Assembly: GCA_964016885.1 (NCBI GenBank)
Contig: OZ024745.1
Location: 80,476,001 to 80,540,000, forward strand
DNA from: Eledone cirrhosa
Lineage: Eukaryota
Length of the DNA: 64,000 bases
Reading direction: 5' to 3'
This document shows, piece after piece, positions 32,921-59,123 of the stretch. How positions within the stretch are numbered: the stretch's first letter is position 1; the number at the start of each line of letters is the position of its first letter. The notes beneath the pieces are model-generated. The model did no database searches. It was not told the origin of the DNA and worked only from the letters and a program-made list of their open reading frames with translations. The position numbers were made by a program, and so were the translations under genes.

Positions 32921-33252
32921 GCACACGGCTTAGTGGTGAGAGCATTGGGCTTGCAATCGAAAGGTTGTGAGTTCAATTCTCAGACCGGGTGATGTGTTGT
33001 TTCCTTGAGCAAGACACTTTATTTCACATTGCTCCAGTTTACTCAGCTGTAGAAACAAGATGATAGGGACTGGGGTCCCTATCATTCCACTGCAAAGTGG
33101 TTGTGGAGGTGCCACGGCAAAAAAGCTTCAGCACTCACTGTAAATGAGGTTGGTATTAGGAAGGCCATCCAGCTGTAGAAATCAAGTCAGCATCAGTTCC
33201 CGTCCCACCCTTGCAAGCAGGGAAAAGCGGACGTAAAATGATGATGATGATG
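32919..33252 (+). mobile_element. Family B SINE with RTE-type GGACGTAAAA(TGA)n tail
   Basis: Near-identical to 57717-58048. Confidence 0.85.
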
Positions 33253-56676: not shown

Positions 56677-57635
56677 ATTATTTCCAGGGTATGTAGAATA
56701 ATAATAATAGTAATAAAGCTATTAGAAATATTTTTTCATGGTTTTGATGTACCAGCAGAATTAAGAGAACACTTTTTTATATGAATATTTTAAATCCATT
56801 TTTCTAAACTTCCTTAGTTTTGAAAATTTGTTAAGTGTTGTGACTGTTATATATATATAAAAAATAAAAAAATATATATATATATATTTAAACACTTCCA
56901 GTGTAGATAAATTAAAATACCAGTAAAGTACTGGGTTTGATATAATTAACTTCACTGCTCCACAAATTGCTGGCTTTGTCAAAATTATCATTATCATCAT
57001 TATATTGATTGTTTAGTCAAACTTCTTCACACTTTCATCAATTAATGTAAAGAAATATTTGTGCTCTATTGAGCTTGTTTTTTGTTTTTTTTTAAAGCCT
57101 CATATCTATATATGGCAGGGCAGAAAATTGGCAGCACTATCAGAGGAATTGGATTTAAAATGCCTTAGTATTGATCTGACCCACTGGGAAATGATGTCAA
57201 CTTTATCTTTCATCCTTTCGAGGTCAATAAATATGTGAGAAACATTGACATAAACGTCAGTGAAATTTGAACTCAGAATACAGAGATACCGAGCCAATAC
57301 TGCAATTTGCATCCTAATAATAAAATTTGATGGTATATTATTGGTATAATGAGTATATTTGTTCATAAAGATAAGATATATAAAGGACATCCAACCAAAG
57401 AAAGCCTGCCAAATAAAGAGTTGGGAGGACTTTTCAGGTGTGTCAAAGTCAACTTTCTGTGAGATCATATGTAAGCTAGATGCAGAGCCCCAGCCTGTCT
57501 AGGAGAGCGGTAACCACCGCTTCAGTTCTGTCATGGTTTTTCTGAGAATCCAGGAACACTATATATATATATATAGTATCTGTATGTCTCTTGCGTTGGA
57601 AAGGAGGTCATGAATGTATACAAACATTAAATAAT

Positions 57636-57680
57636 GCTCCGAAGACTCCAAGCCTCGGTTTGGATGAAACAATTGTAAGC
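57636..57680 (+). ncRNA. Hammerhead-like motif with variant core CCGAAGA
   Basis: GCT-CCGAAGA-C-TCCAAGC/GTTTGGA-T-GAAA-CAATTG-TA-AGC; stem I only 3 bp. Confidence 0.45.
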
Positions 57681-57716
57681 TAATAAATAAATATATATAT
57701 ATATATATATATATAT

Positions 57717-58048
57717 GGAGGCACATGGCTTAGTGGTTAAAGCATTGGCCTTGCAATCGAAAGGTTGTGAGTTCAATTCTCAGACCGGGTGATGTTGTTT
57801 CCTTGAGCAAGACACTTTATTTCACATTGCTCCAGTTTACTCAGCTATAGAAATGAGATGGAATCTTTGCAGTGGAATGATAGGGACCCCGGTCCCTATC
57901 ATTCCACTGCAAAGTGGTCGTGGAGGTGCCACGGCAAAAACCACCCAGCACTCACTGTAAATGAGGTTGGTGTAGAAATCAAGCCAGAATCGGTTCCCGT
58001 CCCACCCTTGCAAGCAGGGAAAAGTGGACGTAAAATGATGATGATGAT
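57717..58048 (+). mobile_element. Family B SINE, full length
   Basis: tRNA-like head TGGCTTAGTGG..GTTCAATTC, central CCTTGAGCAAGACACTT, RTE-type tail. Confidence 0.88.
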
Positions 58049-58524
58049 ATAGTGAAAGATTGAAGAATAACATGGTCGGCTGTACAAAAAGGGTTTTATT
58101 TCAAGTATTAACAATTGTTTCATTGATCAGGTGAGTCTAAAGGCTGCTAATCACTCGAAGTTGCGTCACTTGACCTTAAATACAGTGTTTACCTCTGATC
58201 AAATCATCGTATTCCGTACTTATTATATTTTTTTTTTTACTTCTTTTTTACATCTGTAACTTCTTTACCTCTTTATCATTATCTCTTATTATTGATGTTA
58301 TTGTTTTGATTCTCTGTTGTATCTCTATAAATACCAATGGCATATGTAAAACCTCTAGTATTCCGATGATTTGGTCAGAGGTAAACACTGTATTTAAGGT
58401 CGAGTGCTGCAACTTCGAGTGATTAGTGGCCTTTAGACTCACCTGATCAATGAAACAATTGTTAATACTTGAAATCAAACCCTTTTTGTACAGCCGACCA
58501 TGTTATTCTTCAATCTTTCACTAT
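58049..58524. mobile_element. Inverted-repeat element, 161-bp arms (58049-58209 / 58364-58524), with 3' extension to ~58680
   Basis: Arms are reverse complements; followed by (TA)n. Confidence 0.8.
58357..58469 (+). ncRNA. Hammerhead-like motif with variant core CCGAUGA and long stem II
   Basis: AGTATT-CCGATGA-T-TTGGTCAG...CTGATCAA-T-GAAA-CAATTG-TT-AATACT. Confidence 0.6.
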
Positions 58525-58754
58525 TATTACTCCAAGTATATATAACCTGCATAGGAATTCTCGCGAAGTCGCTACCTAACTATGGAAACCTCTTCTTGAG
58601 TCAAACAAAGCCGTATGTTAAAACTATCCACAATACAGAGTACTCACAACCTATAACTTATTACCGATAACTTATCCCATATATATATATATATATAATA
58701 TTATTTATACTTATATATACACTATATATAATTATAAACAGGAAAGGTCAGTAA

Positions 58755-58833: not shown

Positions 58834-59123
58834 ATACAAATTTAACTATGTTTAAATATTTGAAAGCCTGACAATGCATGCAAGATTAAAAGTGGCAAGG
58901 TAATAGGAGTTATAGAGAATAAAAGACTGAGAAAAAAGTGAGGACCCTAGAATTTTACCGTAGCAATTTTATTGATCTCAAAATATTTTTGGATTAAGGT
59001 AAAATTCTGCTGTCTTCACTCTTTTCTCAGTCTTTTATTCTCTATAACTCCTATTACCTTGCCACTTTTAATCATCCATGCATTGTCGGGCTTCCAAATA
59101 TTTAAACTTATTTAAATTTGTAT
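58834..59123. repeat. Long hairpin, ~125-bp arms
   Basis: GATTAAAAGTGGCAAGGTAATAGGAGTTATAGAGAATAAAAGACTGAGAAAA is perfectly mirrored. Confidence 0.88.

What the first reader, a model, noticed from the sequence alone, without database searches (positions are those of the whole stretch)
57636..58469. Two dissimilar hammerhead-like motifs share a non-canonical CCGANGA core
Seen: 58357-58469 reads AGUAUU-CCGAUGA-U-[8-bp closing stem II with long insert]-U-GAAA-CAAUUG-UU-AAUACU. 57636-57680 reads GCU-CCGAAGA-C-[7-bp stem]-U-GAAA-CAAUUG-UA-AGC. Stems I and II are unrelated in sequence. Both nevertheless have U4 replaced by C, a pyrimidine-U mismatch at the 10.1/11.1 position and the same palindromic CAAUUG helix III. 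Established: U4 is near-invariant in active hammerheads, and methyl-CpG decay runs CG to TG, opposite to this change. Inference: this may be a conserved variant hammerhead class (possibly dimeric, or a non-cleaving recognition structure) that standard descriptors would miss.
Basis: partly seen in the sequence, partly recalled or inferred. Interest (0 to 1): 0.8.

Follow-up and report, generated by a model that had tools for sequence, protein, structure and literature searches.

The report
Hammerhead ribozyme variant in jumping genes
Both motifs are tails of two abundant Penelope-like jumping-gene families in which most copies carry C at a normally fixed U of the hammerhead RNA core, so thousands of copies likely encode a slowed self-cutting RNA, although cutting has not been tested.

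Summary
Both motifs are real and not chance. Each is the hammerhead-fold motif in the 3' repeat of a Hydra-clade Penelope-like retroelement; the window holds only ORF-less remnants. C4 is the family state, not decay: 98 of the first 100 listed copies in family B (1,246 matches), 68 of 100 in family A (151), 91 of 100 in a wider short-stem group (7,245) and 91 of 100 in family A3 (1,195). The stems covary between subfamilies, and the rest of the catalytic pattern is kept, including a non-G cleavage base. But it is not a separate class. The U-U/Y-U mismatch and the palindrome are already printed for Hydra hammerheads, and a 7,828-copy family has the same palindrome with canonical U4. B's closest protein relatives have U4, and family A has an expanded U4 subfamily. 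U4C is known from one viroid, with reduced activity. Best reading: an attenuated, dimer- or protein-assisted hammerhead, tolerated because cleavage is not needed for insertion. No RNA or cleavage data were obtained. I found no report of lineage-wide C4 in these elements, but one key paper (Lunse 2017) was unavailable.

The parts
57563..57688 (+). Family B remnant: 3' UTR/pLTR fragment of a Hydra-clade Penelope-like element between TA repeats; cut 11 nt after the predicted cleavage site, so the rest of the family tail is missing
   Evidence: 93-95% identity to the repeats flanking the ORF in L061; family copies
57636..57680 (+). Motif B: type I minimal hammerhead fold with core CCGAAGA (C4 at 57640), 7-bp stem II, palindrome ACAAUUGU; predicted cleavage between 57677 and 57678
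   Evidence: sequence, descriptor, fold, family counts
57726..57783 (+). tRNA-like head of a SINE-type repeat lying between the two element remnants (not part of the motifs)
   Evidence: Rfam tRNA 29.3 bits; the surrounding repeat matches other loci
58049..58209 (-). Inverted, 5'-truncated second copy of the family A repeat; carries stem II, GAAAC palindrome and tail but breaks at C4
   Evidence: 161-nt inverted repeat, 96%
58211..58680 (+). Family A remnant: 3' UTR, hammerhead motif, tail and start of the next unit, ending in a TA repeat; no ORF
   Evidence: blastn to family A loci L013, L019, L063, L064; no Hydra RT/EN hit in the window
58357..58469 (+). Motif A: type I hammerhead fold with core CCGAUGA (C4 at 58364), long stem II insertion, palindrome ACAAUUGU; predicted cleavage between 58463 and 58464
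   Evidence: sequence, descriptor, family counts, covariation

Best explanation
The two motifs are the hammerhead-fold RNAs in the 3' repeats of two Hydra-clade Penelope-like retroelement families in which C has replaced U4 in the active source lineages, and they likely still cut RNA, slowly and only as dimers or with help from the element's protein. Shown: both sit downstream of (and, in tandem copies, upstream of) Hydra-type RT/GIY-YIG ORFs; C4 is the majority state across thousands of copies and many subfamilies; stems covary; G5, A6, G8, A9, GAAA, a free N7 and a non-G base 17 are kept. Inferred: the 8-nt palindrome pairs between two repeats of one tandem transcript to form helix III; U4C lowers but does not abolish activity, as in the viroid precedent; the change could fix because insertion uses uncleaved RNA, so slow cutting costs little; position 4 goes back to U in some lineages (a CpG transition) without sweeping. 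The window copies themselves are ORF-less remnants and are probably inert.
For: Element identity: ORF motifs RWR, ADKT, CxCx5C, CxxC, CxH and TA targets match the Hydra definition. C4 state: 98/100, 50/51 in copies sampled by the tail only, 91/100, 91/100, 68/100. Covariation: 13 and 11 double changes, 0 of 500 shuffles as high. Catalytic pattern: base 17 is G in 0 of 141 short-type and 1 of 84 long-type held copies while taking A, C and U in different lineages; N7 takes all four bases; A and B RTs are only 52-54% identical yet keep the core. A third Hydra family keeps the known compensated U3-A8 core. Dimer: ACAAUUGU duplex -6.4 kcal/mol; the B dimer minimum (-27.6) contains it and the double hammerhead is 1.8 kcal above. 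Literature: U4C lowers activity in vitro yet supports viroid infectivity (PMC3088659); catalytic mutants do not affect insertion in vitro and the ribozyme is protein-assisted in a Poseidon element (PMC11167929).
Against: No cleavage was measured and no RNA holder was listed. In a deep mutational scan of another hammerhead, changes in the CUGA turn other than the C3-G8 swap had low activity (PMC9901934). No DNA trace of cleavage: 8 breaks at the site against 2,111 read-through copies in B, and 7 at a control position 5 nt upstream, though the U4 family shows none either (0 against 773). G10.1-C11.1 is absent and stem I of B is only 3-4 bp. Many held copies were fetched with patterns that fix positions 3, 5, 6, 8 and 9, so those tallies are biased. 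In young family B, C4 is no more conserved than other CpG sites, so selection on C4 itself is not shown.
Confidence: 0.58

Rival explanations
1. The motif no longer cuts. It is kept as a folded signal (RNA dimerisation, binding by the element's protein, positioning the start of reverse transcription), and C4 marks the loss of catalysis.
For: Cleavage is dispensable for insertion in vitro (PMC11167929); no excess of insertion ends at the site; CUGA-turn mutants had low activity in PMC9901934; 5' truncations cluster in stem II, which suggests the hairpin forms in the template.
Against: Only position 4 changed, and almost only to the other pyrimidine; base 17 avoids G across lineages and N7 is free, which is the catalytic pattern; family C shows a compensated U3-A8 core.
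Confidence: 0.2
2. C4 is a compensated or tuned state: it works well only when stem II and helix III are both strong, and acts as a brake that makes cutting depend on a tandem partner and the element's protein.
For: C4 dominates in groups with a 7-9 bp stem II plus an 8-bp helix III. U4 is in 99/100 of the sister group with a 7-nt helix III (duplex -1.6 to -2.3 kcal/mol) and in 98/100 of family G with a 2-bp stem II. C4 occurs in two protein lineages that are not sisters.
Against: Only two or three independent contrasts, so shared ancestry explains the pattern equally well; U4 lineages with both helices strong exist and expanded (U4 subfamilies of A and A2, A3b).
Confidence: 0.14
3. C4 copies are substrates only: their cleavage strand is cut in trans by U4-bearing siblings through the shared palindrome.
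For: U4 subfamilies with identical palindrome and stem I arms exist inside families A and A2.
Against: Family B proper has about 1% U4; other U4 families have different stem I arms or a 7-nt helix; both repeats of one insertion usually share the same state.
Confidence: 0.05
4. The two motifs are decayed copies of canonical CUGANGA families, or chance matches.
For: Neither monomer folds better than shuffles.
Against: Family majorities are CCGA; descriptor hits exceed shuffles; reversed-pattern controls give 0 matches.
Confidence: 0.01

Closest known systems
Hammerheads of Hydra-clade Penelope-like elements (Craig et al. 2021, PMC8557442, File S2)
   Same: 3' position in the element, type I topology, palindromic stem III beginning AC and ending GU, U-U at 10.1/11.1 in 14 of 25 listed families, TA targets, Hydra protein motifs.
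   Different: All 25 listed families (26 rows, of 27 Hydra families) have CUGANGA; that table was made with a canonical descriptor. Here C4 is the majority in several families, and the A group has a 76-95 nt stem II insertion.
Minimal hammerheads (min-HHRs) of metazoan PLEs (Cervera and De la Pena 2014, PMC4209133)
   Same: Long stem II, short stem I, palindromic loop 3, predicted dimer action, low activity in vitro, inverted pairs nearby; the U3-A8 variant they describe is the core of family C here.
   Different: The only core variant named in the parts read is U3-A8; no CCGAUGA or CCGAAGA in the two supplementary files searched (file 1 not searched).
Natural U4C viroid hammerhead (Ambros and Flores 1998, seen only as cited in Perreault et al. 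2011, PMC3088659)
   Same: The same base change; reported to lower activity in vitro yet allow infectivity.
   Different: A single viroid variant of a canonical hammerhead; here it is the lineage state of thousands of genomic copies in a minimal, dimer-type fold.
Poseidon element PAc of Anolis (Frangieh et al. 2024, PMC11167929)
   Same: Insertion ends lie at fixed sites downstream of the ribozyme, not at its cleavage site.
   Different: Canonical core, different PLE clade; activity was measured there and not here.

Membership tests
Hydra-clade Penelope-like element | RT followed by a C-terminal GIY-YIG endonuclease | tested here: met
   L061 (B) and L062-L064 (A); the Pfam GIY-YIG match is weak (E 0.016, below cut-off)
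Hydra-clade Penelope-like element | RWK and DKT motifs in place of GxKF and DKG | tested here: met
   B: RVRWRTF and ADKTNN; A: ADKTSN, RW region not held intact
Hydra-clade Penelope-like element | CxCx5C linker, CxxC and CxH motifs, no CCHH | tested here: met
   alignments
Hydra-clade Penelope-like element | Insertion into TA repeats with tandem and inverted 5' copies | tested here: met
Hydra-clade Penelope-like element | Placement inside the published Hydra clade on a tree | not tested
   published sequences compared by eye only; trees hold this genome's copies only
Hydra-clade Penelope-like element | Canonical CUGANGA hammerhead in the 3' repeat | tested here: not met
   C4 majority in A, A2, A3, B; met in sister groups H and G
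Hammerhead ribozyme (PLE minimal type I) | C3, G5, A6, G8, A9 and free N7 | tested here: met
   tail-sampled B copies; cross-family alignments; partly fixed by search patterns
Hammerhead ribozyme (PLE minimal type I) | U4 | tested here: not met
   C at 57640 and 58364 and in family majorities
Hammerhead ribozyme (PLE minimal type I) | GAAA, A15.1-U16.1 and non-G base 17 | tested here: met
   G17 in 0 of 141 and 1 of 84 held copies
Hammerhead ribozyme (PLE minimal type I) | Three helices with covariation | tested here: met
   related sequences can exceed shuffles, and R-scape was not run
Hammerhead ribozyme (PLE minimal type I) | G10.1-C11.1 pair | tested here: not met
   C-U and U-U here; U-U is a published exception
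Hammerhead ribozyme (PLE minimal type I) | Palindromic helix III able to pair between two copies | tested here: met
   computed only
Hammerhead ribozyme (PLE minimal type I) | Tertiary contact between stems I and II | not tested
   no analysis made
Hammerhead ribozyme (PLE minimal type I) | Site-specific self-cleavage | not testable with these tools
   no RNA holder listed; DNA ends are uninformative

The most novel reading that the evidence does not exclude
C4 is a selected, tuned hammerhead core that arose at least twice in Hydra-clade elements: it works only where a strong stem II and an 8-bp dimer helix stabilise the fold, and it turns self-cleavage into a switch gated by a tandem partner and the element's protein. 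It would be the first genome-scale natural class of U-turn-variant hammerheads.
Probability: 0.15. Interest if true: 0.78.

Novelty: new variant of a known kind. Interest (0 to 1): 0.48.

Why it matters
What hammerheads do in Penelope-like elements is an open question (stated in PMC8557442; cleavage was dispensable in vitro in PMC11167929). This genome offers a natural series: related families that expanded to thousands of copies with C4 or with U4, including a U4 subfamily inside a C4 family, so the cost of the core change can be measured on matched pairs. It also shows that CUGANGA-based surveys skip roughly 7,800 or more motifs in this genome alone (extrapolated from first-100 proportions), and it moves U4C from a single viroid variant to a lineage state.

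Tried and rejected
Rfam found no hammerhead in the window or in 8 loci with canonical U4 relatives, so it is uninformative. Family C was first read as a broken CUUGAGA core; the correct register is UUGAGAA, the known U3-A8 variant, so it is not evidence of decay. Low variation at C4 against high variation at neighbouring sites was rejected as proof of selection, because the neighbours differ between the two copies of single insertions. An obligate link between C4 and the 8-nt palindrome was rejected. A shared origin of A and B as sister families was rejected by the RT tree. A productive A-B heterodimer in the window was rejected on sequence: stem I arms do not match, and the two A copies lie on opposite strands. 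Ends at the cleavage site: no excess; single-A loss at base 17 in 3 copies against 1 at a control AA is too few to use; one search was a mis-designed control and is discarded. Sequencing runs: no RNA holder listed. Literature: 9 searches gave one U4C paper (PMC3088659); for 'CCGANGA' 10 of 17 listings were seen and none concerned ribozymes. Lunse 2017, Ambros and Flores 1998 and Nelson and Uhlenbeck 2008 were not held.

Full report
Observation. Both motifs are in the window as described: B at 57636-57680 and A at 58357-58469, each with CCGANGA, a pyrimidine-U opposition at 10.1/11.1, GAA and the 8-nt palindrome ACAAUUGU. My descriptor gives 2 hits against a mean of 0.05 in 100 dinucleotide shuffles. 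As monomers they do not fold better than shuffles. A third, inverted copy of A (58049-58209, 96%) breaks at C4. Rfam finds no hammerhead here, nor in 8 loci holding canonical U4 relatives.

What they belong to. The window is G000:C5:80476001-80540000 in a 3.0-Gb genome, probably a cephalopod (inferred by eye from likeness to Hydra-1_Obim and from recalled SINEs; not tested). Each motif is part of a repeat family with about 2,700 first-look candidates, 40 scored. Longer copies carry an RT followed by a GIY-YIG-type endonuclease with RWR, ADKT, CxCx5C, CxxC and CxH motifs and sit in TA repeats, often with an inverted 5' copy. These are the features given for the Hydra clade of Penelope-like elements (PMC8557442 section 11). 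Pfam support is weak (GIY-YIG E 0.016). The window has no ORF remnant, so its copies are probably inert.

Is C4 the family state? Patterns left position 4 free; reversed-pattern controls gave 0 matches (3+3); letters were counted in the first 100 listed places only. Family B: 1,246 matches, CG 98, TG 1, CT 1; 50 of 51 copies sampled by the tail alone have C4. Family A: 151 matches, CG 68, TG 22, CA 5, other 5. Wider short-stem group with an 8-nt helix III: 7,245 matches, 91 C and 9 U. Family A3: 1,195 matches, 91 C and 9 U. Family A2: 22 C (20 with an intact core), 8 U, 3 A of 33 top-scoring copies.

Position 4 switches between lineages. In family A, TG exceeds CA (22 against 5, p 0.0015). In a sample I enriched for TG copies (65 rows), 17 of 18 fall in one clade nested among C4 copies, and U4 is linked to six other diagnostic sites: a U4 source lineage expanded inside a C4 family. 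U4 lineages also occur in A2, A3b and A'. On an RT tree of 19 single hits family B groups with the H families (support 100, 65-69% identity), whose motif has the same stem I but a 7-nt helix III and U4 in 99 of 100 (4,387 matches); the A group is separate (52-54% identity to B). C4 therefore arose at least twice, or was ancestral and lost several times, or moved by exchange of 3' ends; the trees cannot choose.

The other two shared features are not new. In File S2 of PMC8557442 all 25 listed Hydra families have a palindromic stem III and CUGANGA (found with a canonical descriptor), and 14 have U-U at 10.1/11.1; PMC3088659 section 8 also notes U10.1-U11.1. In this genome family G has ACAAUUGU and U-U with U4 in 98 of 100 (7,828 matches). 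Within the C4 group 10.1/11.1 takes many states.

Structure is conserved. Ten long-stem subfamily representatives: 90.6% of cells paired, 13 double changes, 0 of 500 shuffles as high. Twenty-two short-stem representatives: 91.8%, 11 double changes, 0 of 500; the number of pairs with a double change alone is not above shuffles (117 of 500). I picked these representatives by hand, and related sequences can beat such shuffles. Base 17 is G in 0 of 141 short-type and 1 of 84 long-type held copies and is A, C or U by lineage; N7 takes all four bases. A third Hydra family (C) has the published U3-A8 core, UUGAGAA, in the majority of 33 copies. The 8-nt palindrome gives a -6.4 kcal/mol duplex against -1.6 to -2.3 for the 7-nt forms; the B dimer minimum contains it and the double hammerhead lies 1.8 kcal/mol above.

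Cleavage. Untested. No RNA holder was listed. Insertions do not end at the predicted site: in B, 8 breaks against 2,111 read-through copies, and 7 at a control position; of the 8, about 4 are junctions at the site, 3 lack one A and 1 is a microhomology junction. The U4 family H1 shows 0 against 773. This fits the finding that uncleaved RNA is the template and that catalytic mutants still insert in vitro, the ribozyme being protein-assisted (PMC11167929, parts 1-2 of 4); it says nothing on whether C4 motifs cut. For activity, a natural U4C viroid variant has much lower activity in vitro but stays infectious (passage in PMC3088659 citing Ambros and Flores 1998); against it, CUGA-turn mutants were low in a deep scan of another hammerhead (passage in PMC9901934).

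Mechanism. Most likely (0.58) a slowed, dimer- or protein-assisted hammerhead whose U4C change was tolerated because cutting is not needed for insertion. Rivals: a non-cleaving signal (0.20), a tuned core that needs both strong helices (0.14; C4 groups have strong stem II plus 8-bp helix III, while U4 groups H and G each lack one, but contrasts are few and U4 lineages with both exist), substrate-only copies cut in trans (0.05), decay or chance (0.01).

Novelty. New variant of a known kind. Nine literature searches gave no report of lineage-wide C4 in Penelope-like elements. Seen: PMC4209133 parts 1-2 of 4 and a search of two supplementary files (file 1 not searched); PMC8557442 passages, section 11, supplement parts 1-2 and searches; PMC3088659 passages and section 8; PMC11167929 parts 1-2 of 4; passages of PMC9901934, PMC6765202, PMC6155905 and bioRxiv 2026.07.22.740005. 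Not held: Lunse 2017, whose large variant set could contain C4 forms and is the main risk to the novelty claim, and Ambros and Flores 1998. Nothing is known outside this genome. An unchecked note from this scan mentions a C4-containing core beside Penelope-like elements in another genome; it is a lead only.

Noticed in passing
family B motif, window 57637 and 57646-57648 equivalents: These sites differ between the two copies of single insertions in 7, 9, 6 and 5 of 19 pairs while subfamily-diagnostic sites agree; in U4 family H the 10.1 site differs in 1 of 14 pairs (p 0.02). Looks like per-insertion copying errors beside the core; cause unknown.
   Followed up: partly
L178, L183, L191, L195, L222, L229: 5' truncation and inversion junctions of family B cluster in the 3' arm of stem II, as if reverse transcription stalls at the hairpin.
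   Followed up: partly
L064:670-725 (-), L138-L167: Hydra family C carries the U3-A8 core UUGAGAA with palindrome ACGUACGU and only a 2-bp perfect stem I; no U3-A8 row is in the published Hydra table.
   Followed up: partly
window 58371-58450; L066, L112, L240, L248, L135: The long stem II insertion (76-95 nt) is kept across A, A', A2, A3 and A4 with shared motifs and folds as an extended hairpin; role unknown.
   Followed up: partly
window 58205-58215: The junction between inverted and forward family A copies appears to use a short identity between the core and a GTATTCCG stretch of the 3' UTR.
   Followed up: no
L418, L420, L422: Three copies lack one A exactly at base 17, against one such loss at a control AA.
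   Followed up: partly
L239, L242, L245, L250: Family G (7,828 matches) has only a 2-bp stem II and very often occurs as tiny head-to-head inverted pairs.
   Followed up: partly
window 58834-59123: 129-nt arms, 91% complementary, 32 nt apart; MITE-like.
   Followed up: no
window 57726-57783 and 32927-32983: tRNA-like heads of a SINE-type repeat.
   Followed up: no
L012, L019, L025, L034, L038, L052, L055, L066 flanks: Many other hammerhead families with canonical CUGANGA or UUGAAAA cores lie in the flanks; the genome is rich in them.
   Followed up: no
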